Part shown: piece by piece, positions 11,303 through 53,435 of the stretch
How the letters are laid out: each line of letters begins with the position of its first letter
Position numbering within the stretch: position 1 is the stretch's first letter
From: a virus
Lineage: Duplodnaviria > Caudoviricetes
Strand: one strand, 5' to 3'
Virus record (IMG/VR): IMGVR_UViG_3300047669_002431
Location: 1-59,021 of that record
Length of the DNA stretch: 59,021 bases
Notes under the pieces: generated by a model
Databases searched by the model: none
The model's input: only the letters and a program-made list of their open reading frames with translations
What the model was told of the DNA's origin: nothing
Program-made: the position numbers and the translations under genes

Positions 11303-11337
11303 GGGTATATAATATTTTTTTTATCTCTAAATGTCAA
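11303..11337 (-). promoter_or_regulatory. sigma70-type promoter, leaderless
   Basis: TTGACA-17-TATTAT-6 nt-ATG(11302). Confidence 0.75.
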
Positions 11338-13891
11338 GGATTTCTTCAACGTCTTCTGAGCCCCTTATTTGAGATAATTTTGTAAATACCTTTTCGCTTT
11401 TAACGACGATATCGTCAGCAAAAATCACATCTTCGAATTTAGTGCCTTGAACAAGAATTATATCATTTGCTTTAGCTCGGTATTTACTTTTAAAAGAATC
11501 CATCTTCTCATTAAAGATCATTACTTTTATAGAACCAGAATCATCGCTTACCTGCATACGCATGTAACGACTTTTCTTGGCTGAGCGTGAAACTCCGCTG
11601 TACGGGTCTTCTTCGAGGGAGCCTACAAATTTAACTTTATGTCGCAAAGGGACCTCGCAAGCCGTCCTTACCGAGATGAGCCCAGAGTGATCTTTGTCGA
11701 AAATATTTTTTAAAGATTTGTTATAGGTATATCCGAGTAAAAATTTTTCGTAATACCAGTTAGCGAAAGACTCAGACACTTTATTAATATGGAAAATTTT
11801 AGCATATGGAGCGGATTTTTTTCTAATAGTTTCTACTCGGCTGTCTTTAATGAAGGGCTTTCCTTTTTCGTCTAAATTATCTTTTAAATATTTAATTATA
11901 TCTACTAAATTATAATTAAATTTACCCCCAAGTCTTTGGCACAGGGTTTTCTCTTTAGAGGTGAGGATATTCCAGAGCTGAGATTCGTATACGACCTTAG
12001 TCCTGCTTTGTTTAAAATCTCCCTCTAGAGCTCCTGCTTGGATAAGAGCACACAAAGAGCCGATGTTAAGTCCGGCTTGCTTAGCTGCTTCGAAGATTTC
12101 AAATTTTGATTCGTATTCTTGCTTGAAGGACGCGAGTTTTTCTATAGATTTATCAGATATTCCCTTGATAGAGAGTAGGCCGAATCTAATATCCTTCCCT
12201 TCAGCGCTAAAGTCCATTTTAGACTTAGTTAAATGGGGAGGTAATAGTTTAATTTCAAATATATCCATTTCTTTATGAATCTTCGAAATTTCATTAATTG
12301 GATCAGGCTCGTGTCGAGTCATCTTAAGCAAGCTTAAGAAAAATTGTTGAGGATGGTTAAATTTTAAATATACCGTTATAGCGGCTAGGGCAGCGTACGA
12401 AATAGAGTGAGACTTGTTAAAGGAGTAATTAGCTGAGTCTTCTAAGATTTTCCATAGCACGTCTCCCACGTCTTCAGAAAGGCCATTTTCTGTTATTTTG
12501 TCTTTAATTTTCTTTTTCCATTTTCTTACTTCAGACACCTTCTTTTTGCCTACGATACGACGTAAGATTTCAGCCTCATCTAATGTGAACCCTATTTTAT
12601 GAGCCATTTTCATTAACTGCTCTTGGTACAAGGCTACGCCTCCAGTTGATGTCAAGATGTCATCAAAGAAGGGGTGGATAGCCTCGTATACATCATTATT
12701 TGTATAATTAGCGTACTGGTCAACAAACGCCAAGGCTCCGGGGCGAGCAAGAGCTAAAACAGCGCTTAGCTCATCAAGGTTTTTAGGTTTGACTTTTCGA
12801 CAAACTTTAAAATTTGTTTCCGCTTCAATTTGAAAAAGTCCATGAGGGGAGCGTAAATCATATAAATTTTGATAAATACTTTCGTGAGCAAGGTCTATGT
12901 CTGTAGCTTTAATTCCGACTTTCTTGCAGACATCGTCAACTACGGAAACGGCCCTTAGCCCAAGTATGTCTAATTTTACATTAGAGATTGACGCCCAGTT
13001 CATGTCGAATGAAACTACAGAGCTTTTTTTATCGGAGGTAAGCTCTAAGGGACAGCTTTCTTCTAGTGGGTCGTAAGATATGATGACGGCAGATGGGTGA
13101 ACCCCTTTATTTTTAACTAAGCCTCGCAGCTTTAAGGCTATGTCGTACACTTCTTCGTTCTCCTCGCACCAATCGCGAAAATCTTCGACCTCCTCGCGGG
13201 CTTCTCTTATATCTTTTACTTGACCAAATACTTTAGGAATCATCGCAGAGACAGTGTTCATCTCTGTTTCTGTTTTTGCTCCCGCGATCTTGCCGCATTC
13301 TTTTATTAGGAGCTTTGCGCTTAAAGTGTTAAAGGTTAAAATTTTGCTAGTTTTTCCAGAGAATTTTTCCGCTAAATATCGTAAAACTCTTTGGCGATTG
13401 TAATAGCAAATATCCAAATCTACATCGCACATTAGAGCTCCGTCTAGGTAGATAACGCCATCCACCTCCTTTTTTTTAGCTCTAATTTTAGAGACAAATC
13501 TTTCAAAGAATAGGTCATTTTCTACAGGGTCAATTTTAGTAACGCCCATTAAATATAAAATAAGACTACCAGCCGCGCTTCCCCTCCCTAGTCCGGTAGG
13601 AATCATTTCTTGATTGCAATAGTTAATTACGTCCCATACCAATAGGATATAATCAATAAAGCCTAAATCTTTTAAGGTAGAGAACTCATATTTAAATCTT
13701 TCTATATATTTTTCATTATATACGTTTTTATCTTTTAAGGCTTTAATGCAAACGCTTTTTACAAACTCTTCATTATTTAGGTTTTCGCTTAACTTTAAGC
13801 TTCTTTTTTGCTCATTAGAAACTTTAAAGGAAGGAAGTCTTACTCCATGCAGGGGGAGATTTATTTTTTTAATTTTACTTAAAGCGTTCAT
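11327..13891 (-). CDS. dnaE: DNA polymerase III alpha catalytic subunit lacking the N-terminal PHP domain
   Basis: GRGSAAGS, CDVDLD, KLDILGL, YQEQLM, YSFNKSH, IRFGLLSIKGI motifs; C-terminal OB-like region. Confidence 0.93.
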   Translation of the reverse strand: MNALSKIKKINLPLHGVRLPSFKVSNEQKRSLKLSENLNNEEFVKSVCIKALKDKNVYNEKYIERFKYEFSTLKDLGFIDYILLVWDVINYCNQEMIPTGLGRGSAAGSLILYLMGVTKIDPVENDLFFERFVSKIRAKKKEVDGVIYLDGALMCDVDLDICYYNRQRVLRYLAEKFSGKTSKILTFNTLSAKLLIKECGKIAGAKTETEMNTVSAMIPKVFGQVKDIREAREEVEDFRDWCEENEEVYDIALKLRGLVKNKGVHPSAVIISYDPLEESCPLELTSDKKSSVVSFDMNWASISNVKLDILGLRAVSVVDDVCKKVGIKATDIDLAHESIYQNLYDLRSPHGLFQIEAETNFKVCRKVKPKNLDELSAVLALARPGALAFVDQYANYTNNDVYEAIHPFFDDILTSTGGVALYQEQLMKMAHKIGFTLDEAEILRRIVGKKKVSEVRKWKKKIKDKITENGLSEDVGDVLWKILEDSANYSFNKSHSISYAALAAITVYLKFNHPQQFFLSLLKMTRHEPDPINEISKIHKEMDIFEIKLLPPHLTKSKMDFSAEGKDIRFGLLSIKGISDKSIEKLASFKQEYESKFEIFEAAKQAGLNIGSLCALIQAGALEGDFKQSRTKVVYESQLWNILTSKEKTLCQRLGGKFNYNLVDIIKYLKDNLDEKGKPFIKDSRVETIRKKSAPYAKIFHINKVSESFANWYYEKFLLGYTYNKSLKNIFDKDHSGLISVRTACEVPLRHKVKFVGSLEEDPYSGVSRSAKKSRYMRMQVSDDSGSIKVMIFNEKMDSFKSKYRAKANDIILVQGTKFEDVIFADDIVVKSEKVFTKLSQIRGSEDVEEILDI

Positions 13892-20668: not shown

Positions 20669-21964
20669 TTACGGTAAAGATAAAAACGAAACTAAAACGT
20701 ATCGGACTCCACTGCTTATAGGTTTAGCTCCATGTCGATGTGAAACCATACCGGGGTGGAGGGACATTTCTCCAGTTTTTCCTATGATAGTTTTTTGCTG
20801 ACGAAAAAAGAAAGTTCCACCGCCTTCGAAGTCTTCATTCAGCGTAAGAACAGAGCTTAACACACTTTGGTCGTGGTGTAAAGACAAAAAACCCTGTTTG
20901 TCCATCGAATATTTAATTATAAAATTTTCTGAATTTAATTCAAGCCATCTTTTTCCGTCTAACTTATAGTAGTGCGATCCGAGTGGGAAAACGTACTCAG
21001 TTAAAACTCTCTTATAAATTTCATCGAAGCCTAGAGTGGAAAGAAGCATGTCGTGAGTAGGGTAATATTCATGCCTCTTTTCGGTCCATTCGCCGCATTT
21101 TTCAGCTTCTTGAATTAAGTCGTCGCAGAAATCCTTATTAAAGATGGGAAAATGAGCGACATCAGCTACAGGCTCTTCAACTAGCAGGTCGTAGTCTTGG
21201 GCGAGCATGGCGGGGTTAAGATATCGACTCTTCCATTGGTCCCAATCTCTAGTTTGTTTTATAAGAGAGGGGGGAGCTACTACCTTCTCAAGGTTTTCAG
21301 TACTGCTAACTGATGAAGCGCTAGATTGAATTATGTAGTCTTCCTTAAAGGCTACGGCCCTAACATCTTTCCAAATAAAATTTAAATCGTTACGGGGGTG
21401 AGTGCAAAATGTAGCTGATAAAAACTCATCGACAGGCATTATCTTATTTTCAAACCCGTAATCTAGTAGATTTTTAATACCTGTTTTTGATAAGAAATAC
21501 GAATGAGTGCAATAGGTGTAGTCTGGTATAGAAATATTCTCCGAAACCTCCTCTAAGTCGGGCTTTACTTTGTTTCTGCCAGCATAACAAAGATGCCAAT
21601 CTGATTGGTCTGCTTCAATTAGGAGATCAGAGGTAATGGGCTTTAAGGGGTCAAAGTCTTCTTCTAAAATTAATATTTTTTCATATCCTTGGCGAGCTGC
21701 GTGCTTCCAAACGGATAGATGGGAAAGGGCGCAGCCGATTTCTCCGGCTTTAATGTCTCGATTCCACCAGTGATTGTCAGACCCCTCTAGTTTCCAAGGA
21801 AAAGTGCTCCACTCAAAGTCAACCCGAGGGTCAAAACCGTTAACGGCTTTAAATAGAACTAATTGAAGAGATTTAATACCTATTTTTTTTACTCTTTCTA
21901 TAATTTCTTCCCTTTTATTAGAGAGAGTCTGCTCTAGCGCGATAACGTAAATGCAATCAATCAT
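20669..21964 (-). CDS. Fusion of a GT25 (COLGALT-like) glycosyltransferase and a PLOD-type lysyl-hydroxylase 2OG-Fe(II) domain
   Basis: N-terminal GEIGCALSH, ILEEDF, MPVDEFL..F..HP; C-terminal FPIFNKDFCDDLI, PTHD, NFIIKY, LHHDQS, FEGGG, LHPGMVSHRHG, GVRYVLVSF. Confidence 0.85.
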   Translation of the reverse strand: MIDCIYVIALEQTLSNKREEIIERVKKIGIKSLQLVLFKAVNGFDPRVDFEWSTFPWKLEGSDNHWWNRDIKAGEIGCALSHLSVWKHAARQGYEKILILEEDFDPLKPITSDLLIEADQSDWHLCYAGRNKVKPDLEEVSENISIPDYTYCTHSYFLSKTGIKNLLDYGFENKIMPVDEFLSATFCTHPRNDLNFIWKDVRAVAFKEDYIIQSSASSVSSTENLEKVVAPPSLIKQTRDWDQWKSRYLNPAMLAQDYDLLVEEPVADVAHFPIFNKDFCDDLIQEAEKCGEWTEKRHEYYPTHDMLLSTLGFDEIYKRVLTEYVFPLGSHYYKLDGKRWLELNSENFIIKYSMDKQGFLSLHHDQSVLSSVLTLNEDFEGGGTFFFRQQKTIIGKTGEMSLHPGMVSHRHGAKPISSGVRYVLVSFLSLP

Positions 21965-31222: not shown

Positions 31223-31287
31223 TACACTAAAAAAATATCTGCTTTTCATTTTTTAAATAAATAAAGAACATTTTTTAGATAAGTGTA
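31223..31287. promoter_or_regulatory. Divergent pair of AGTGTA promoter-like motifs
   Basis: AGTGTA on - at 31223-31228 (9 nt before ATG 31213) and on + at 31282-31287 (11 nt before ATG 31299). Confidence 0.6.
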
Positions 31288-31298
31288 ACATATGGTAG

Positions 31299-31505
31299 AT
31301 GTATGAAGTTGCTCTACCTCCCTATAGGCTGAAGGTTTTCCTTTGCGACGACGGGAACTGGAGGCATGACTCTGTGTTTATATACAATAATGAGAAAATA
31401 ATAAACGAAAAGGAGATTGACTCCTTAATGCAGTACTTATTTGACGAGGGGTTCATAAAGGACAGGAGGACAATTTACTACGTAGCCGAAAGAGATTCAG
31501 ACTAA
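31299..31505 (+). CDS. Small hypothetical protein, paralogue of 47287..47475
   Basis: LMQYLFDEGFI motif; preceded by AGTGTA. Confidence 0.7.
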   Translation: MYEVALPPYRLKVFLCDDGNWRHDSVFIYNNEKIINEKEIDSLMQYLFDEGFIKDRRTIYYVAERDSD

Positions 31506-31600
31506 ATGAAGATTAGTGAGAAGAATCGCCGCCGTTTTGGGACAAGTGCAGTTATTAATATATTCTTTTTATTTATTCATGCGATCCTGTAATGGCTCTA

Positions 31601-37322: not shown

Positions 37323-38417
37323 TTAATCTAATACACTTAAAATAGAGTCAGTCATACGGGAGGCTGTAAAATTTTCTTGTATTTTTAGTCCTTCGTGATT
37401 AACTCTGTCATTTTCGACTCTTTTGATGGCTTCCTCGCATCCGTCTATGAAATCATCATCATTAAAGTCAAAGATTCTGCCTTGATTGAAGGGCTCTCCT
37501 TTTTTAAAGAAGATTCCGTCATAAGCGTCAGTTTTACCGGAAGGACTCACAAGAACTGAGTTTTTATCATTTGCCCATTCCTTATATCCGGTAGCGTCTA
37601 GTATCACTCCATGCTTGCCGACTCCTAAAGATTGAAATTCCGGAAGGCCCCATCCCTCAGCTCCCGACATGCCAATGATTATGTCGCCAGAATTTAAGAA
37701 GTCATTATAGAGAGCGTTTTGCGTCATATGACCTAAAAAATTTACATTAAAATAAGCACTGCCACCCATACTTTCTGAGAATAATTGTTTGTTCAATTCT
37801 TCACTGAGAAAGGGGTTGTAAACTGCACATTGAAGCGAGTATTTAGAATTGTTGCCATACTTTTTTACCCATGCATTAATTATTTTTTTATGGTGCTTCC
37901 TGTGTTCAAATTTACCGCATAAGTTAAAGGTAATTCTTTCGTCTTCAAAATATACTTTTTCTATTCTTTTAAAATTATAATTATCAAAAGCTAGAGGTAT
38001 GAGGCGGGATTTAACATTTAAGTTTTCAAAAATATCTTGGCAATAAGAGTTAGATACCAGAAGGTTATCTACGCTTTCCGCGATTTTAAGCTCTTCCTTA
38101 GTTGGCTGATCTAACTCATAGAAAGTAATTAGATTATGGATTTTAGAAAAAGACTCTAATCCTCCATTTAAATGCCACAACTTGATGCTGGGGTCATTTT
38201 TGCGATAATTACGGTAAGACTCTTTGGAGCTCTTTTGAAGCCATTGAAGGAATGGGTCCGTCTTGACTTCTTCTTGAGAGGAGAAATCGATTTTCCCACC
38301 AATAACGAAAAGAGGCAAAGCAAAGAATGGGTCTCTCCGGAAAATCTCCCTCAAGAAAAGAGTAGAGACTTGTCCGAAAGAGACTCCATTAATTGGAAGA
38401 TTAGCTGTGAATTGCAT
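37323..38417 (-). CDS. GT4 glycosyltransferase
   Basis: GKFEHRK, SGAEGWGLPEFQSL. Confidence 0.8.
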   Translation of the reverse strand: MQFTANLPINGVSFGQVSTLFLREIFRRDPFFALPLFVIGGKIDFSSQEEVKTDPFLQWLQKSSKESYRNYRKNDPSIKLWHLNGGLESFSKIHNLITFYELDQPTKEELKIAESVDNLLVSNSYCQDIFENLNVKSRLIPLAFDNYNFKRIEKVYFEDERITFNLCGKFEHRKHHKKIINAWVKKYGNNSKYSLQCAVYNPFLSEELNKQLFSESMGGSAYFNVNFLGHMTQNALYNDFLNSGDIIIGMSGAEGWGLPEFQSLGVGKHGVILDATGYKEWANDKNSVLVSPSGKTDAYDGIFFKKGEPFNQGRIFDFNDDDFIDGCEEAIKRVENDRVNHEGLKIQENFTASRMTDSILSVLD

Positions 38418-38725
38418 TAAAGCACGTCTTCATCTACTTGTGCTTGTGCTTCGGGAGCTGCTTCCTTTACTTCTTCCTTATTGGCGTTAGAGAAGTCTTT
38501 AGACTTTAGAATTCTAAAATCAGGGTAGCGTTCATTTTTCTTTTCTCGGTTAGCGAAAACTACCACTTTAATTTTCGTTTCCACTCCCATGTCGTCTTCC
38601 ACAACGATGTGCCCAGCGAGGTACTTTTGCCCCCCGTTTTTGCTTTGTTTTTTCCAGAGAGCGCCAAGCTCTTGGTTGTCGTTTTTGGAGGAGTAGTCTT
38701 TGTTATCGTTAGTATTTTCTGGCAT
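38417..38725 (-). CDS. DUF736-like small protein with acidic tail (possible ssDNA binding)
   Basis: LGALWKK..YLAG..VFAN..PDFRI; start MPEN at 38725 supported by a promoter. Confidence 0.6.
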   Translation of the reverse strand: MPENTNDNKDYSSKNDNQELGALWKKQSKNGGQKYLAGHIVVEDDMGVETKIKVVVFANREKKNERYPDFRILKSKDFSNANKEEVKEAAPEAQAQVDEDVL

Positions 38726-38761
38726 AGAACTTATCTTAGGCTTATTATGTAGAGGTGTCAA
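38726..38761 (-). promoter_or_regulatory. sigma70-type promoter, leaderless
   Basis: TTGACA-17-TAAGAT-7 nt-ATG(38725). Confidence 0.75.
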
Positions 38762-39368
38762 GGAAATTTCTAATAAAAGGCTCAATATGTTTTTTTGTTA
38801 AAATTTCTTCGACTTCATCTTGTGGTCTTTGGATAAACTCCCAATCTATAGAATAATCAGCTTGGAGCTTAAGTTTTGGGTCATTAGTTTTTTCGGCATC
38901 ATTTGCAGGTCCATGCGCTATTATTACAGGCGGCGAACAGTCGTCGCTTTCAACAGTTACGTAGTTAGAGATATGAATTAACGATCCTTTTAATTCTTTT
39001 TTTAGCCAAAAGACTTCATCTTGATCGTAATGATCAAACCTTATATCTGTTATAACTAAAATTTCATCATCGTCTAATTTTAATTTTTTAATATTTTCAT
39101 TAACAATGTTTATCCAGTATCTCCCGTAAGTGCATCCCCTCTTTACGTTAGCATGAAATACTAATAGGGGCCTGATCACTTCCTTATCTTCTCTTGAGCA
39201 GTTAGTGGCGTCTATACCGTAATGCTTCTTAGTCCACGGAGCCACTTCTTCCTTAAGAGCTTTCGCTAAAGATATTTTTCTGCATTTTCTAAAATTAGAA
39301 AGAAGGTCGAAAAATAAATCTTTACCACTCCCAGCTACTCCGGAAATTCCTATAATTTTATTACTCAT
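38745..39368 (-). CDS. Deoxynucleoside monophosphate kinase (T4 gp1-like)
   Basis: IIGISGVAGSGKD P-loop, VITDIRF; likely start at 39368. Confidence 0.8.
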   Translation of the reverse strand: MSNKIIGISGVAGSGKDLFFDLLSNFRKCRKISLAKALKEEVAPWTKKHYGIDATNCSREDKEVIRPLLVFHANVKRGCTYGRYWINIVNENIKKLKLDDDEILVITDIRFDHYDQDEVFWLKKELKGSLIHISNYVTVESDDCSPPVIIAHGPANDAEKTNDPKLKLQADYSIDWEFIQRPQDEVEEILTKKHIEPFIRNFLDTST

Positions 39369-40200
39369 TATTCTCGACGGCAGTTTTTTTGTTTTTACCA
39401 TCGAATACGTTTTCAAAATCTATTAGCGATGTACCGTAAGTGGCAGTCCCTATGTGGTCAAGTTTTGAGGTCGTATCTAACCAAATTTTACCTCCTATTT
39501 TTTTCCATCTTTCGCAAAAGGTATAGTCTTCAGATAAATAGTTTTTACCTATTTCATGTATTGAAGTGTCGAAAAAGGAATAAGTGTTTTCTTTTATTTT
39601 CTCTATAGCCACTTCTCCTAGAGCTTCTTTCGCGTCTTGAGAGTAGCCTTCAGTTTCTAGTTCTGATTTATATTTTAACTCTGGATAGGAAGTTTTCATC
39701 TTGTCTAAGCATTCCCTTTTAATGCACATAAACCCTGTTCCAGCGCGTTCCACTTCAATGAAATTTTGTTCATCGCAGGTAGCTCCTTCTTTAAAATCTA
39801 CCACGTATCTAGATGGAGAGCTCTTAGTGGGGTAAGCTCCTACGCTAACCATTCTATCTGATAAGCATAACCTAAATAAGGATTGAGGATTGAATTGTAT
39901 ATCAGCATCTAAAAAGAATAAGTGAGTATGCTCGTCAGAAGCTAGGAATTGAGCTACTAAATTATTACGAGCTCTAGTTATGAGGCTGTCATTAGAAAGG
40001 AATCTAAAGTCTACGGTAAGGCCTACAGAGATTCCCGTGACAACAGTTCCGATCATTCCGGAAACCGTTGCTTGGTCCATTTTTCCTCCGAAGCAAGGAG
40101 TACATATCATTACTTTGATATTTTTGTATTCTTCTTGCGTTAGTAAAGGGCGACCCCTTTCGTTGGTATCCTCTAATGAGGAGGTATCTATTATTTCCAT
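39361..40200 (-). CDS. GT-A-like glycosyltransferase (putative)
   Basis: CTPCFGG, SLITRARN, FFLDADI, GTGFM, LSEDYTFC, HIG. Confidence 0.7.
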   Translation of the reverse strand: MEIIDTSSLEDTNERGRPLLTQEEYKNIKVMICTPCFGGKMDQATVSGMIGTVVTGISVGLTVDFRFLSNDSLITRARNNLVAQFLASDEHTHLFFLDADIQFNPQSLFRLCLSDRMVSVGAYPTKSSPSRYVVDFKEGATCDEQNFIEVERAGTGFMCIKRECLDKMKTSYPELKYKSELETEGYSQDAKEALGEVAIEKIKENTYSFFDTSIHEIGKNYLSEDYTFCERWKKIGGKIWLDTTSKLDHIGTATYGTSLIDFENVFDGKNKKTAVENNE

Positions 40201-40229
40201 AATTAAAAAGTATATAAATGATTTTTAAA

Positions 40230-40640
40230 GTTTTAGCTACTGTCCTTTTTTTTCCTTAGTAAGCGTTAAGACACGGTTGCCCACTCTAAGTTAAAAAACT
40301 TAGTGATACGTAACATACTCCCGTTTCAACCCTTCGCAACACTTTATGTGCTTTCGGCGTCTTTTCGCCTAGCTCGCGAGCAGTATGTTATAATTTATGT
40401 TTCCTTGTTAATAAGCGGTGGGGTTTTTCTTATTGGCTACCGTCCTTTTCCTTTAGCAAAGTATGAAGTTTCCGGTTTCTCTATTACGAGATACTAATCT
40501 CAACGCCGTGCGCTCCCGAAGTAACGTGAAGGTTATTAGCCTTACTTGATTAGTGCCTTTTAACGGGCTTGTGGTGAACTTATCAGTGTGTATATCGCAC
40601 TAAGTCACCGCGTTAACAAAGATCAATTTCACGAAGGATG
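40230..40640. other. Structured non-coding region at the divergent strand switch (candidate ncRNA or replication origin)
   Basis: Multiple inverted repeats and a direct repeat spaced 200 nt; no credible ORF. Confidence 0.55.
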
Positions 40641-40706
40641 TTATTATTATACTCTAGAGTCAAGGATAAAAAAAATCTTGACCCAAATATATAAAAAAGT
40701 TAAAGT
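40635..40706. promoter_or_regulatory. Back-to-back divergent sigma70 promoters
   Basis: + strand TTGACC(40678)-17-TAAAGT; - strand TTGACT(40663)-17-CATCCT (weaker -10). Confidence 0.6.
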
Positions 40707-40737
40707 CGTTTCACTTTAGAAAATTAAAAAATAAATT

Positions 40738-40968
40738 ATGAGTAAAAAAGGTAGAAAACCAGTAATGTTTGATTGGCCTGAGAAGGACTTCACCGCAGAA
40801 GATATTCAAAAGTCTCTTGCAGGAAAGCTCTCCCGCGTATCAATTCACACCAAAATTAATAACGGTCTTAAAGCCGGAGAATTAACTTTGGTAAAGAAAA
40901 TTAAACCAGCGCTCGGGCGTCCCCGCTCCGTTTACAGTCGAGTTAAAAGCTGTATCACCCAAGGGTGA
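40738..40968 (+). CDS. Small winged-HTH DNA-binding protein
   Basis: FTAEDI...LSRVSIH...LGRPRSVY. Confidence 0.6.
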   Translation: MSKKGRKPVMFDWPEKDFTAEDIQKSLAGKLSRVSIHTKINNGLKAGELTLVKKIKPALGRPRSVYSRVKSCITQG

Positions 40969-41372
40969 TGGAAAGGATTTCTTGGGAAGAGTACGCTTTA
41001 GCTTTAGCTAGAATTGCGTCTCTCCGGAGTGAAGACCCTTATGTAAAAGTAGGAGCTTGCGCTCTTCGCCGCGACAACAGCGTGGCTGGAGTTGGCTACA
41101 ACGGAGCTCCTCCGTCTTTAGAGATAGATTGGGAAGATCGCGACGAAAGGCGCAAAAGGGTAATTCACGCAGAAATAAATGCGTTGCGCTACGCTCATCC
41201 TGACGAGTGCTACCTTTTAGCTTGCACCCTTTTACCTTGCAATGACTGTTTGAAGACTATAGCTTCATACGGAATTAAAAAGCTTGTCTTCGGGGAAGAG
41301 TATGATAAAGACCTCTCCTCTTTAGATTTAGCTAATGAGTTTGGGATAGAGCTAGTAACATTTACCGATTAG
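40968..41372 (+). CDS. dCMP deaminase
   Basis: RSEDP..KVGA, GYNG, HAEINAL, PCNDC. Confidence 0.92.
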   Translation: MERISWEEYALALARIASLRSEDPYVKVGACALRRDNSVAGVGYNGAPPSLEIDWEDRDERRKRVIHAEINALRYAHPDECYLLACTLLPCNDCLKTIASYGIKKLVFGEEYDKDLSSLDLANEFGIELVTFTD

Positions 41373-50035: not shown

Positions 50036-50116
50036 TTTAAGAATTTTGAAGAGTGAGTAAAATGGAGGGAAGAGTATTTTAAATCAAATAATAAATTTCA
50101 TAGAGCTTATTTAAAT

Positions 50117-50314
50117 ATGACCCCCGAAGAAGCAGAAAAAACTAAAGAGAATTGCCGCAGCCTATTAAATGATATAATTTTAACGGCTGAAGAGCAGGAC
50201 GCGGTTCATAAAGTTGCAGCTATAAAAGCCGGAAAAGGGTCGCAAGCCGTGGGTCAAAGCTGGATGGTTTTTCACTTAAAAGCCTTAAAAGAACATTTAA
50301 ATGAAGTATTGTAA
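50117..50314 (+). CDS. Hypothetical protein
   Basis: 65-aa ORF in a co-directional run. Confidence 0.55.
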   Translation: MTPEEAEKTKENCRSLLNDIILTAEEQDAVHKVAAIKAGKGSQAVGQSWMVFHLKALKEHLNEVL

Positions 50315-50492
50315 GCGCTCAACATTATTGATTGCATACAAGGAAATTAATTCCATTCTCTTAAAGCTAGAGAAAGAATACTTAGAGTTAGCTCGGAGTT
50401 CTCCAGAAAATACCGGAGAAGGGATTTACGGAGTTTATGCTATAAAAAAAGTAAGAAACAATCTTTTAAACCTTCTGCAAGAACGTGAGTAA
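50301..50492 (+). CDS. Hypothetical protein
   Basis: 63-aa ORF overlapping both neighbours. Confidence 0.5.
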   Translation: MKYCKRSTLLIAYKEINSILLKLEKEYLELARSSPENTGEGIYGVYAIKKVRNNLLNLLQERE

Positions 50493-52831: not shown

Positions 52832-53020
52832 TTTGCCGGTTGATCGCTGGCAAAGGGTGTGACCGAATAAACTGCTGTCGCGGCAGTTAAGGTACAGCGC
52901 TCGTAGGCAGGAGATTACCGTCTCTAGGGGCTTACAAGGGCTGGTTCAAAGTAGGGTTTCTCACTGAAACTCAAGCTGTGACTCCGAAACGATGGAGGTA
53001 AATGAGATTCCTCCCACCCA
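52832..53020 (+). ncRNA. Highly structured ~190-nt RNA (possibly manA-motif-like)
   Basis: Nested helices with G-U pairs favouring the + strand: 52832-39/52847-54, 52855-59/53015-19, 52870-77/52881-88, 52893-98/52975-80, 52910-15/52920-25, 52954-60/52966-72, 52994-98/53010-14. Confidence 0.75.
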
Positions 53021-53033
53021 CTAATTTCTAAAA

Positions 53034-53435
53034 ATGCAAGATAACGTTAAATACTTTAAAGAGGAAGACAGGTTTTATGTCTTAGTCGATTATCCTTACG
53101 ACGGAGCGCGAATTAACACCGTGGAAGTCGTTAAGGATTATGTTTCTTTGGACTTAGATATGAACTCCGGAGGAATTTACCTAGTTGAAATATACAAAGT
53201 AGCCGACCTCCTTGAGGCTAGCTTTTCCGACGAGAAGATTAAGTATAGTGGTGATACCGATTCACTTTCTATTTCTCTAACGCCCAATGACGATACGGAA
53301 GGCCCATGCGATTTAGTTTTTAGGACCGAAGATGAAGTTATGATTTCCTTAAATAGGACCGAAGTGGGAAATCTAACTGGAATTGAGATAGTAGGCTTTC
53401 AGTTTGCAATTAATCACAAAGACTTTATTGTATAA
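53034..53435 (+). CDS. Acidic protein with two DUF2283-like repeats
   Basis: VKYFKEEDRFYV..LDLD..GGIYLVEI and IKYSGDTDSLSI..GNLTGIEI. Confidence 0.6.
   Translation: MQDNVKYFKEEDRFYVLVDYPYDGARINTVEVVKDYVSLDLDMNSGGIYLVEIYKVADLLEASFSDEKIKYSGDTDSLSISLTPNDDTEGPCDLVFRTEDEVMISLNRTEVGNLTGIEIVGFQFAINHKDFIV

What the first reader, a model, noticed from the sequence alone, without database searches (positions are those of the whole stretch)
40230..40640. ~400-nt structured non-coding element at the genome's divergent strand switch
Seen: this is the longest non-coding stretch in the window and is packed with inverted repeats. These include TAACATACT/AGTATGTTA (40311-19/40382-90) enclosing three small hairpins, CTAAGTT/AACTTAG (40286-303), AATAAG/CTTATT (40410-34), ACTAATC/GATTAGT (40493-99/40548-54) and a long hairpin at 40560-40616. 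A direct repeat TT(A/G)GCTAC(T/C)GTCCTTTT..CCTT(T)AG recurs exactly 200 nt apart (GCTAC at 40236 and 40436), splitting it into two equal domains. A - strand promoter at 40663 would transcribe it, and a wHTH gene is adjacent. Inference: an unrecognised two-domain ncRNA or long leader, or the replication origin with iteron-like sites.
Basis: partly seen in the sequence, partly recalled or inferred. Interest (0 to 1): 0.75.

Follow-up and report, generated by a model that had tools for sequence, protein, structure and literature searches.

The report
New large structured phage leader RNA
The long gap between two diverging gene blocks of this uncultured marine phage encodes a previously undescribed, strongly conserved, roughly 430-base folded RNA that heads the phage's DNA-metabolism genes, so it is a real new RNA family whose job still has to be found.

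Summary
Window 40201-40737 is the longest ORF-free stretch, and it encodes a structured RNA on the minus strand.

Single-sequence folding is no better than shuffles (z about -1.3). Comparative evidence decides the question. Sixteen distinct homologues from uncultured phage contigs show 26 of 51 domain-1 pairs and 11 of 22 domain-2 pairs with compensatory changes. The paired share is 90-95% against 35-54% in slid controls. The RNA is more conserved than both flanking genes.

It matches no Rfam family, no GenBank phage and no bacterial genome searched.

Architecture:
- a sigma70-like promoter, then a boxA-like 5' end
- a 16-bp long-range helix closing a pseudoknotted domain 1
- a three-way-junction domain 2
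- each domain ends in a hairpin, an A-rich linker and an 11-nt motif, and the two motif copies co-vary between lineages

In the marine lineages it is the 5' leader of a glycosyltransferase-like / dNMP-kinase gene block. In one distant 40-kb phage it stands alone.

My preferred mechanism is low-confidence: pre-rRNA-like, Nus/boxA-assisted folding and read-through. Rivals are a riboswitch-like sensor, a stable trans-acting RNA, and an origin primer. The iteron-origin reading is not supported.

The parts
40658..40663 (-). -35 box TTGACT of the RNA's sigma70-like promoter. It lies back to back with the TTGACC -35 box (40678) of the diverging small-protein gene.
   Evidence: TTGACN is at the same place in 15 of 16 homologues. 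A 16-17 nt spacer followed by a xAxxxT hexamer is present in 11 of 16.
40635..40640 (-). -10 hexamer (CATCCT in the window, weak; TAnnnT in most relatives)
40617..40625 (-). boxA-like 5' element UGAUCUUUG. It is also part of the 5' strand of helix P1.
   Evidence: G[A/U/C]UCUUU is present in 16 of 16 sequences. Reference sequences: rrn boxA UGCUCUUUA (PMC2724277) and consensus GYTCTTTAANA (PMC5725501).
40606..40622 (-). P1 5' strand (outer UCUUUGUUAA, inner GCGGUG)
   Evidence: It pairs with 40402-40420. In the inner helix 5 of 6 pairs have compensatory changes, and in the outer helix 7 of 10.
40596..40600 (-). Pseudoknot 5' strand GUGCG
   Evidence: It pairs with CGCAC at 40508-40512. 98.8% of cells are paired, with one double change (L114: GCGCG/CGCGC) and one mismatch (L084).
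40555..40570 (-). P3, an invariant A-rich-loop hairpin AAGCCCGU(U/A)AAAAGGC ('boxB-like')
   Evidence: It is invariant in 16 of 16 sequences, including the 18 loci that were found with a different pattern. It shares 12 of 16 letters with lambda nutR boxB as printed in PMC2724277; I made that comparison by eye.
40493..40554 (-). P4 (ACUAAUC/GAUUAGU). It encloses hairpin P5 (40529-40543) and the near-invariant 25-nt core ACGUUACUUCGGGAGCGCACGGCGU (40503-40527).
   Evidence: In P4, 4 of 7 pairs have double changes. In P5, 4 of 4 do. The core is invariant except for one base in L114. Part of that invariance was forced by the search patterns.
40478..40491 (-). P7, a variable hairpin that is absent in three lineages
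40435..40477 (-). Module 1: AACC, hairpin P9 (40450-40461), A-rich linker, and motif GGACGGUAGCC (40435-40445)
   Evidence: The hairpin stem is kept with changes such as CUUU/AAGG to CCCU/AGGG. The motif co-varies with its second copy.
40402..40420 (-). P1 3' strand (CACCGC ... UUAACAAGGA), which closes domain 1
40311..40390 (-). Domain 2 core: closing helix (40376-40390 with 40311-40324) around two hairpins (40356-40369 and 40339-40351)
   Evidence: 94.7% of cells are paired against 35-54% in slid controls. 11 of 22 pairs have double changes.
40286..40303 (-). Variable hairpin of domain 2 (CUAAGUU/AACUUAG)
   Evidence: A hairpin of different sequence and length sits here in every lineage (by eye).
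40235..40282 (-). Module 2: small hairpin with AACC in its loop (40269-40282), hairpin P9-2 (40254-40263), A-rich linker, and motif GGACAGUAGCU (40235-40245)
   Evidence: In L083 and L092 the motif abuts the AUG.
39361..40200 (-). First gene downstream of the RNA: a glycosyltransferase-like protein (phrog_1574). It is followed by a dNMP kinase (38745-39416), a DUF736 protein (38417-38785) and a glycosyltransferase (37323-38417).
40738..40968 (+). Diverging 76-aa winged-helix protein with GRKP/GRP arms. It is syntenic in all marine lineages that have enough upstream sequence.

Best explanation
SHOWN. The window's minus strand encodes one structured RNA of about 430 nt, from roughly 40630 down to 40201. 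It starts a few bases after a sigma70-like promoter. In the marine lineages it continues without an intervening terminator-like site into the glycosyltransferase-like / dNMP-kinase / DUF736 / glycosyltransferase genes.

The RNA has two domains:
- Domain 1 (about 210 nt) is closed by a 16-bp long-range helix, P1. It holds an invariant A-rich-loop hairpin (P3), helices P4 and P5, a near-invariant 25-nt core and a pseudoknot.
- Domain 2 (about 190 nt) is a three-way junction followed by a variable hairpin.
- Each domain ends in the same module: a hairpin, an A-rich linker and an 11-nt motif.

INFERRED (my preferred mechanism). The RNA is made, and acts, the way a pre-rRNA leader does:
1. The boxA-like 5' end (G[A/U/C]UCUUU) loads the host NusB-S10/Nus complex onto the transcribing polymerase.
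2. That complex holds the 5' strand until its partner emerges 200 nt later, so that the leader-trailer-like helix P1 can close domain 1.
3. The modified, termination-resistant polymerase reads on into the DNA-metabolism genes.
4. The two co-varying motif copies are docking sites for one phage-specific factor.
5. The folded domains may be cut out at P1 as a stable RNA.
For: Existence, strand and fold:
- Homologues were found in 22 of 63 sources by the covariance model. They make 16 distinct sequences.
- Domain 1: 89.8% of cells are paired against 35-43% in slid controls. 26 of 51 pairs have double changes, and 0 of 500 shuffles reach this.
- Domain 2: 94.7% against 35-54%, and 11 of 22 pairs have double changes.
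- Strand: G.U against A.C cells are 52 to 4 in domain 2 and 38 to 21 in domain 1.
- RNA nucleotide identity to the window is 0.69-0.92. The two flanking genes are at 0.60-0.81.

Leader position:
- TTGACN is present in 15 of 16 sequences.
- The distance from motif 2 to the AUG is 0-60 nt, and the motif abuts the AUG in L083 and L092.
- The closing helix of domain 2 includes the -10-like TATACT of the apparent internal promoter and co-varies. The transcript must therefore come from upstream.

Nus-like reading:
- UCUUU preceded by G plus one base is present in 16 of 16 sequences. L094 (GUUCUUUAAAA) fits GYTCTTTAANA exactly, and L099 has UGCUCUUUG (PMC5725501 passages; PMC2724277 passages).
- Within P1 the inner 6 bp vary freely with compensation, while the UCUUU part changes only on its partner side.
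- boxA together with a long leader-trailer helix around a folded RNA is the pre-rRNA arrangement (PMC10250234 abstract).
- The two motif copies change together in six lineage types.
- An RNA-library contig covers 40392-40610, which is essentially domain 1. This is only a weak hint.
Against: - boxA is short. TGWTCTTTG occurs 5 times in the window against 1.4 expected.
- Position 2 of the published consensus is Y, but it is A in 10 of 16 sequences.
- The element is base-paired in P1.
- U tolerates both A and G partners, so one-sided change in the outer helix is weak evidence for a sequence-specific constraint.
- The host is unknown, so its own boxA could not be compared.
- No N-like protein was identified.
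- The minus-strand gene block has good internal promoter-like sites (for example 33061-33033, 11337-11309 and 38761-38733) and few convincing terminators. Long-range antitermination is therefore not obviously needed.
- In the distant member L099/L077 the RNA is antisense to all its neighbours and has no downstream ORF. A purely cis role does not explain that.
- Folding energy is not better than shuffles.
- The invariance of the core is partly forced by how the homologues were collected.
- The run that gave the RNA-library contig also holds pieces of both flanking genes and may contain DNA.
Confidence: 0.3

Rival explanations
1. Riboswitch-like sensor. Domain 1, alone or with domain 2, would be an aptamer for a small molecule of nucleotide or DNA-modification metabolism, or for a protein made by the operon. 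It would set translation or elongation of the downstream genes, with module 2 acting as the ribosome-loading or blocking platform.
For: - The multi-helix core is pseudoknotted, with near-invariant junction nucleotides.
- It lies upstream of the same gene set in the marine lineages, with a dNMP kinase within three genes in all 10 loci that have enough downstream sequence.
- dCMP deaminase, dUTPase and RNR genes are nearby.
- Motif 2 lies 0-25 nt from the AUG in about half of the lineages.
- Genes here mostly lack a Shine-Dalgarno sequence: 10 of 53 have even a loose match. An A-rich leader could therefore be the loading site.
Against: - No terminator/antiterminator pair and no conserved start-site sequestration was found.
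- The distance to the AUG varies from 0 to 60 nt.
- 430 nt is far larger than known aptamer-plus-platform units.
- L099 has no downstream gene.
- The co-varying motif points to a macromolecular partner that differs between lineages, not to a universal small ligand.
Confidence: 0.22
2. Stable trans-acting non-coding RNA(s). One or both domains would be the functional product, acting on a conserved host machine or on a phage factor. Co-transcription with the downstream genes would be incidental.
For: - It is free-standing and antisense to its neighbours in the 40-kb phage L099/L077, yet keeps both domains and both motif copies.
- Sequence conservation is extreme across phages whose flanking proteins are 40% identical or less, or unrelated.
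- P1 resembles a processing stem.
- There is one copy per contig.
- An RNA-library contig is limited to domain 1 (weak).
Against: - In 15 of 16 sequences it sits directly ahead of a same-strand gene, with no terminator-like site after it.
- Only one free-standing case is known.
- Contigs cannot show RNA ends.
- No target is known.
Confidence: 0.25
3. Origin region. Either the transcript primes replication, as an R-loop or pre-primer in the manner of ColE1 RNA II or the T4 origins (recalled), or the two motif copies are origin-protein sites for the neighbouring winged-helix protein.
For: - It sits at the divergent strand switch, next to the replication genes.
- The cumulative GC skew reaches its minimum at 39-41 kb.
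- A winged-helix DNA-binding protein with GRP arms is always adjacent in the marine lineages.
- It needs no downstream gene, which fits L099.
Against: - The skew follows gene orientation at both strand switches, so it is not diagnostic.
- There are only two motif copies, 167-243 nt apart, and none in the promoter region. That is not an iteron array.
- No conserved AT-rich unwinding element was found; in L083 the motif abuts the ATG.
- Compensatory changes and the G.U bias require selection on an RNA fold.
Confidence: 0.08
4. No function: an AT-rich spacer whose repeats arose by chance.
For: The MFE z-scores are unremarkable, and many short repeats are at chance level.
Against: The covariation, the conservation above that of the coding flanks, and the conserved promoter.
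Confidence: 0.01

Closest known systems
Bacterial rRNA operon leader (boxA, rrn antitermination complex, leader-trailer helix)
   Same: - A boxA-like element lies at the 5' end of the transcript.
- A long helix forms between sequences about 200 nt apart and encloses a folded RNA.
- It lies just downstream of a strong-type promoter (PMC10250234 abstract; PMC2724277 passages).
   Different: - It is encoded by a phage.
- The enclosed RNA is about 200 nt and unrelated to rRNA (no Rfam match).
- boxA is itself part of the helix.
- Protein-coding genes follow.
- Dependence on Nus factors is untested.
Lambda nut sites (boxA, spacer, boxB, bound by N and the Nus factors)
   Same: - It sits at the start of an early phage transcript.
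- The order is a boxA-like sequence followed by an invariant hairpin with an A-rich loop.
- That hairpin shares 12 of 16 letters with nutR boxB (sequence from PMC2724277; compared by eye).
   Different: - The spacing is about 45 nt instead of about 8.
- The hairpin stem is 3-4 bp rather than 5.
- The whole element is ten times larger and pseudoknotted.
- No N-like arginine-rich protein was found.
HK022 put RNAs and other RNA-only processive antiterminators (recalled; not checked in any call)
   Same: They are cis-acting folded RNAs just downstream of early promoters that act on the polymerase that made them.
   Different: put is about 70 nt with two stem-loops.
Large phage-associated structured RNAs of unknown function (GOLLD, ROOL)
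   Same: They are large, ornate, covariation-supported RNAs used by phages, with no known job (passage in PMC5737381; listing of bioRxiv 10.1101/2024.12.08.627333).
   Different: - There is no match to their Rfam models.
- They are not leaders of a fixed gene set.
- They have a different size and different hosts.
Tandem riboswitches and the marine phage riboswitch candidate manA RNA
   Same: They are structured domains in the 5' UTRs of phage metabolic genes. A manA RNA is present in this same window at 52834-53024 (PMC2864571 passages).
   Different: - The two domains here are not two copies of one aptamer.
- No expression platform was found.
- The total size is much larger.
Candidate structured RNAs of IMG/VR viruses (Fremin et al. 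2023, PMC10690425)
   Same: They come from the same data source and the same kind of evidence (covariation in viral contigs).
   Different: Their candidates are 30-151 nt (passage). Whether any of them is a piece of this RNA can only be seen in the supplementary tables, which were not available to me.

Membership tests
Any Rfam 15 family | Covariance-model score at or above the family's gathering threshold | tested here: not met
   No match in 40201-40737 at gathering thresholds. With E up to 10 on 39900-41000 there were only two chance-level hits outside or at the edge of the RNA.
tRNA / tmRNA | ARAGORN detection | tested here: not met
   0 genes in the window.
Nus-factor site (rrn leader / lambda nut) | boxA matching the consensus (UGCUCUUUA; GYTCTTTAANA) | tested here: inconclusive
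   G-N-UCUUU is present in 16 of 16 sequences. There is a full match to GYTCTTTAANA in 1 of 16 (L094). Position 2 is A in 10 of 16.
Nus-factor site (rrn leader / lambda nut) | Position in the nascent RNA just downstream of the promoter | tested here: met
   The element begins about 12-15 nt after the -10 hexamer.
Nus-factor site (rrn leader / lambda nut) | Binding of NusB-S10, and termination-resistant elongation that depends on them | not testable with these tools
   This needs binding and read-through assays.
Lambda-type nut | boxB hairpin bound by a phage N protein with an arginine-rich motif | tested here: inconclusive
   There is an invariant hairpin resembling nutR boxB, sharing 12 of 16 letters. 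No N-like gene was recognised among the neighbours examined.
Pre-rRNA-type leader-trailer helix | Long helix between flanks of a folded RNA, kept by covariation | tested here: met
   P1 has 16 pairs, and 12 of them have double changes.
Riboswitch | Conserved aptamer upstream of a consistent gene set | tested here: met
   It lies ahead of the same-strand GT-like gene or the dNMP-kinase gene in 15 of 16 sequences. It does not in L099.
Riboswitch | Expression platform (terminator/antiterminator pair, or sequestered start site) | tested here: not met
   There is no terminator-like site on the RNA strand in the region, no consistent partner for the motif or start region, and the spacing to the AUG is variable.
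Riboswitch | Specific ligand binding | not testable with these tools
   This needs in-line probing or ITC.
Iteron-type replication origin | Array of three or more closely spaced direct repeats plus an AT-rich unwinding element | tested here: not met
   There are two copies only, 200 nt apart (167-243 nt in relatives), and no conserved AT-rich element.
Iteron-type replication origin | Skew inflection that is independent of gene orientation | tested here: inconclusive
   The minimum at 39-41 kb coincides with the strand switch. The record is about 37% of a genome.
Winged-helix DNA-binding protein (the neighbour at 40738-40968) | Helix-turn-helix followed by a beta-hairpin wing | tested here: met
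   The model has pLDDT 83 with H20-26, H33-46, E49-55 and E63-68. The best PDB matches are ArsR/PadR/MarR-type regulators, with TM about 0.6, probability 1.0 and E about 1e-2. There is no Pfam hit.

The most novel reading that the evidence does not exclude
This would be a new class of large functional phage RNA. A pseudoknotted RNA of about 200-430 nt would be matured like rRNA, using boxA-assisted folding and a leader-trailer helix. It would then act in trans on a universally conserved host machine such as the polymerase, the ribosome or the Nus factors, for example as a decoy or as a catalytic or ligand-binding core. A phage-specific partner would dock at the two co-varying motifs. That would explain three things: the near-invariant core shared by a marine jumbo-type phage and an unrelated 40-kb phage, the free-standing copy, and the lack of any expression platform.
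Probability: 0.25. Interest if true: 0.85.

Novelty: new variant of a known kind. Interest (0 to 1): 0.72.

Why it matters
Large RNAs with strong covariation support, a pseudoknot and near-invariant cores are rare. Finding one usually leads to new biochemistry.

This one sits at the head of the nucleotide-metabolism, DNA-modification and replication genes of a widespread group of uncultured marine phages. It carries signals otherwise typical of rRNA operons and lambda nut sites. If the Nus-type reading is right, it would extend boxA-based control to a new phage group and to an RNA far more elaborate than nut or put. If it is a sensor or a trans-acting RNA, it is a new class.

Either way the model and alignment given here make it directly testable: in vitro transcription with Nus factors, probing, RNase III cleavage, and read mapping in marine metatranscriptomes.

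Tried and rejected
- **Rfam and tRNA scans** found nothing in the region.
- **Single-sequence folding** gave z-scores of -0.5 to -1.4, which is uninformative.
AATAAG/CTTATT is rejected by eye.
- **P2 (CUUA/UAAG)** has 62% of cells paired and no compensation.
- **An internal promoter** TTAACA-18-CATACT (40411-40382) as the start of a separate domain-2 RNA is rejected. Its -10 lies inside the co-varying closing helix, and the -35 is not conserved.
- **A partner for the 11-nt motif.** RNAduplex of each copy against its own RNA in 10 lineages gave no consistent site. AACC:GG pairing (P8) has 75% of cells paired and fails in module 2 of L091 and L097, so it is left open.
- **Relatives through the downstream protein.** Only 1 of 61 loci carries the RNA. 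It is absent from 5 larger related contigs, two of them complete.
- **Searches of other collections:**
  - GenBank phages: no match.
  - 185,579 species genomes: 4 exact 19-mer hits, all by chance.
  - Pattern with an internal NNNN: 0 hits, not even the known members, so it is uninformative.
  - Pattern AAGGACRGTAGCYAAWA: 13 stretches, of which only the known contig is real.
- **RNA runs.** X18-X20 only cover the flanking genes. The stretches of the RNA without cover in X17 prove nothing. All four runs are contigs, with no strand or end information.
- **Terminator scans** of the downstream block were noisy: 28 found against 16.6 expected, and 14 against 11.3.
Full report
**What the window is.** The 59,021-bp window is an IMG/VR virus record that CheckV rates as about 37% complete. 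It carries the following genes:
- class I ribonucleotide reductase
- a DnaE-type DNA polymerase
- a DnaB-like helicase
- a UvsX-like recombinase
- dCMP deaminase and dUTPase
- a dNMP kinase
- several glycosyltransferases
- a collagen-like tail fibre

Genes on the minus strand run from 40200 down to about 6900. Genes on the plus strand run from 40738 onward. The finding lies in the gap between these two blocks.

**Checking the observation.**
- The gap between the flanking genes is 40201-40737. It is the longest stretch in the window without an ORF of 70 aa or more: 509 nt against 449 nt for the next.
- Taken alone the sequence is unremarkable. Minimum-free-energy z-scores are -1.28 (plus strand) and -1.39 (minus strand) for the whole gap, and -1.08 and -0.52 for the two halves.
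- Rfam gives no match at gathering thresholds. It gives nothing credible at E up to 10 either.
- ARAGORN finds no tRNA or tmRNA.

**Homologues.**
- A scan for relatives of the downstream protein returned 61 loci, and only one of them (L002) holds a similar intergenic region. That region is 89% identical in mean column identity, although the protein is only 76% identical.
- I then scanned with exact patterns taken from the conserved stretches:
  - The 17-mer gave 3 true and 3 false stretches in viral contigs.
  - The 20-mer gave 18 metagenome loci. One (L090) is the window itself. The other 17 all match the covariance model.
  - The 16-mer gave 31 stretches, of which 5 are true.
- A covariance model of domain 1 found 22 matches in 63 sources. 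These make 16 distinct sequences.
- The same model found none in the other 60 loci that hold relatives of the downstream protein. It found none in five larger related contigs, two of them complete. It found one copy each in the two contigs that could be searched whole.
- GenBank phages hold nothing similar.
- The 19-mer hits in one genome for each of 185,579 prokaryote species are four chance matches.
- One caveat applies. The collecting patterns force invariance within themselves. The two patterned stretches do validate each other, however. All loci found through the core carry the P3 hairpin unchanged. All loci found through P3 carry the core with at most one change.

**It is a structured RNA on the minus strand.**
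- Domain 1, on a plain MAFFT alignment of the 16 sequences with the structure I drew:
  - 89.8% of cells are paired, against 35-43% when partners are slid by 1-3 columns.
  - 26 of 51 pairs have a change on both sides, against 6-12 in the slid controls.
  - No shuffle out of 500 reaches the observed values.
- Domain 2 core, in 14 sequences: 94.7% are paired against 35-54%, and 11 of 22 pairs have double changes.
- Strand evidence:
  - Read on the opposite strand, the domain-2 helices drop to 238 of 302 paired cells from 286 of 302, with 52 G.U cells against 4 A.C cells.
  - Domain 1 shows a weaker bias, 38 against 21.
- Nucleotide identity of the RNA to the window is 0.69-0.92, and 0.81-0.95 for the core of domain 1. 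In the same seven comparisons the two flanking genes are at 0.60-0.81.
- Insertions and deletions fall in hairpin loops or remove whole hairpins.

**Anatomy** (window coordinates; the RNA reads from high to low).
- **Promoter.** A -35 TTGACT lies at 40663-40658. TTGACN is at the same place in 15 of 16 sequences. A 16-17 nt spacer and an xAxxxT hexamer follow in 11 of 16; the window's own -10 is the weak CATCCT.
- **P1.** It pairs 40606-40622 with 40402-40420 and closes domain 1.
  - The six inner pairs occur as six different Watson-Crick combinations across lineages.
That hairpin breaks without compensation in 7 of 16 sequences.
- **Inside domain 1:**
  - GUGCG (40596-40600) pairs with CGCAC (40508-40512) across helix P4, which makes a pseudoknot. 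It is supported by one double change (L114) and contradicted by one mismatch (L084).
  - The invariant hairpin P3 lies at 40555-40570.
  - P4 pairs 40548-40554 with 40493-40499.
  - P5 lies at 40529-40543.
  - A 25-nt near-invariant stretch contains a cUUCGg hairpin (40503-40527).
  - A dispensable hairpin P7 follows.
- **Domain 2.**
- **Shared end module.** Each domain ends in the same module: AACC, a pyrimidine/purine hairpin, an A-rich linker and an 11-nt motif.
  - Across lineages they change together: GGACGGUAGCC, AGCUGGCAGUC, GGCUGAUAACA, (GGU)AAGGUUAGCC, GGCUGGCAGAC, CCGGCAGA.
  - I found no consistent RNA partner for the motif. I therefore take it as a site for a factor that differs between phage lineages.

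**Context.**
- In the marine lineages the order is conserved: dUTPase, dCMP deaminase and a 74-85-aa protein on one strand, then the RNA and the downstream genes on the other.
- The downstream genes are a glycosyltransferase-like gene (phrog_1574), a dNMP kinase, a DUF736 protein and a glycosyltransferase.
- Variations:
  - In L098 the RNA directly precedes the kinase.
  - In L098 and L114 one extra gene separates the small protein from the RNA.
- Motif 2 lies 0-60 nt from the start codon and abuts it in L083 and L092. There the RNA must be part of the mRNA.
- The apparent internal promoter between the domains has its -10 inside the co-varying closing helix of domain 2. I therefore read the region as one transcript.
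- The small protein models as a winged helix (pLDDT 83). It resembles ArsR/PadR/MarR-type regulators (TM about 0.6) and has conserved GRKP and GRP arms. It has no Pfam match.
- The distant member L099/L077 is different. It comes from a 40-kb contig in which a terminase lies nearby. The RNA keeps both domains and both motif copies. It lies antisense to all neighbouring genes and has no ORF downstream.

**Expression.** Four runs recorded as metatranscriptomes hold parts of 39900-41000.
- In one of them a 219-nt contig covers 40392-40610, which is essentially domain 1. Other contigs of that run cover parts of both flanking genes.
- These are contigs, so they carry no strand or end information, and DNA may be present in the library.
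- I count this as a weak hint that the region is represented in RNA.

**How it may work.** The 5' end of the RNA reads G-N-UCUUU in 16 of 16 sequences:
- UGAUCUUUG in the window
- GUUCUUUAAAA in L094, a full match to the published gamma-proteobacterial consensus GYTCTTTAANA
- UGCUCUUUG in L099, close to rrn boxA UGCUCUUUA (PMC5725501 passages; PMC2724277 passages)

Further points bear on the mechanism:
- Within P1 the inner helix varies freely with compensation, whereas the UCUUU segment changes only on the partner side.
- In rRNA operons, boxA in the nascent leader assembles the antitermination complex. Complementary leader and trailer sequences form long helices around the rRNA (PMC10250234 abstract).
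- The invariant P3 hairpin also resembles lambda nutR boxB, sharing 12 of 16 letters with the sequence printed in PMC2724277. That comparison is by eye.

My preferred reading is therefore a pre-rRNA-like, Nus-assisted leader. I state it fully, with the evidence against it, under Best explanation, and I hold it at about 0.3.

**Rivals.**
- Riboswitch-like sensor of nucleotide or DNA-modification metabolism: 0.22.
- Stable trans-acting RNA: 0.25. The free-standing copy and the extreme conservation favour this reading.
- Origin or primer RNA: 0.08.
- The iteron reading fails on copy number and spacing. The skew minimum at 39-41 kb coincides with the strand switch.

**Novelty.**
- Nothing in Rfam 15, in GenBank phages or in the searched genomes matches this RNA.
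- Three literature searches turned up no description of it.
- The IMG/VR-wide screen of PMC10690425 reports candidates of only 30-151 nt. Its supplementary lists, which I could not see, might contain fragments of this RNA.
- I file it as a new family. Cautiously, I treat it as a new variant of the known kind 'structured leader with Nus-type signals'. The bolder reading is a new class of large functional phage RNA.

Noticed in passing
window 52834-53024 (+): A manA RNA (RF01745; 60.3 bits against a gathering score of 55.2) lies directly upstream of a 133-aa DUF2283 protein gene (53034-53435). The family is described as marine and cyanophage-associated in PMC2864571.
   Followed up: partly
window, all gene starts: Only 10 of 53 gene starts have even a loose Shine-Dalgarno-like match in the 20 nt upstream, while promoters look sigma70-like (TTGAC). 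This suggests an SD-poor host with classical promoters. The host was not identified.
   Followed up: partly
window 50036-50484 and 31250-31600: These are the next-longest ORF-free gaps (449 and 351 nt). The second holds a terminator-like hairpin on the minus strand at 31426-31410. Neither was examined for conserved RNA.
   Followed up: no
window 6900-45100: There is a dense set of DNA-precursor and candidate DNA-modification genes: at least five glycosyltransferase-like proteins, a 2OG-Fe(II) oxygenase fusion (20669-21964), dCMP deaminase, dUTPase, dNMP kinase and RNR. This hints at hypermodified DNA. One GenBank relative of the phrog_1574 protein is annotated 'dpG-synthase-like'.
   Followed up: no
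window 11327-13891 (-): The replicative polymerase is of the DnaE (Pol III alpha) type rather than family A or B. The best GenBank phage hits are only 25-32% identical.
   Followed up: no
L099 8755-8890 (-): In the distant 40-kb phage a 44-codon, very basic ORF ends in the boxA-like element of the RNA. It contains KGKRPVIFF, reminiscent of the KKGRKPVMF N-terminus of the marine winged-helix protein. A terminator-like hairpin lies just upstream of it.
   Followed up: no
L098 and L114/L122, between the small protein gene and the RNA: An extra 135-156-aa gene on the RNA's strand is inserted upstream of the RNA promoter in these two lineages only.
   Followed up: no
window 40644-40697: The -35 boxes of the two diverging promoters form an inverted repeat (GTCAAG ... 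CTTGAC) separated by a T/A run. This arrangement is conserved in relatives and is a plausible operator for the winged-helix protein.
   Followed up: no
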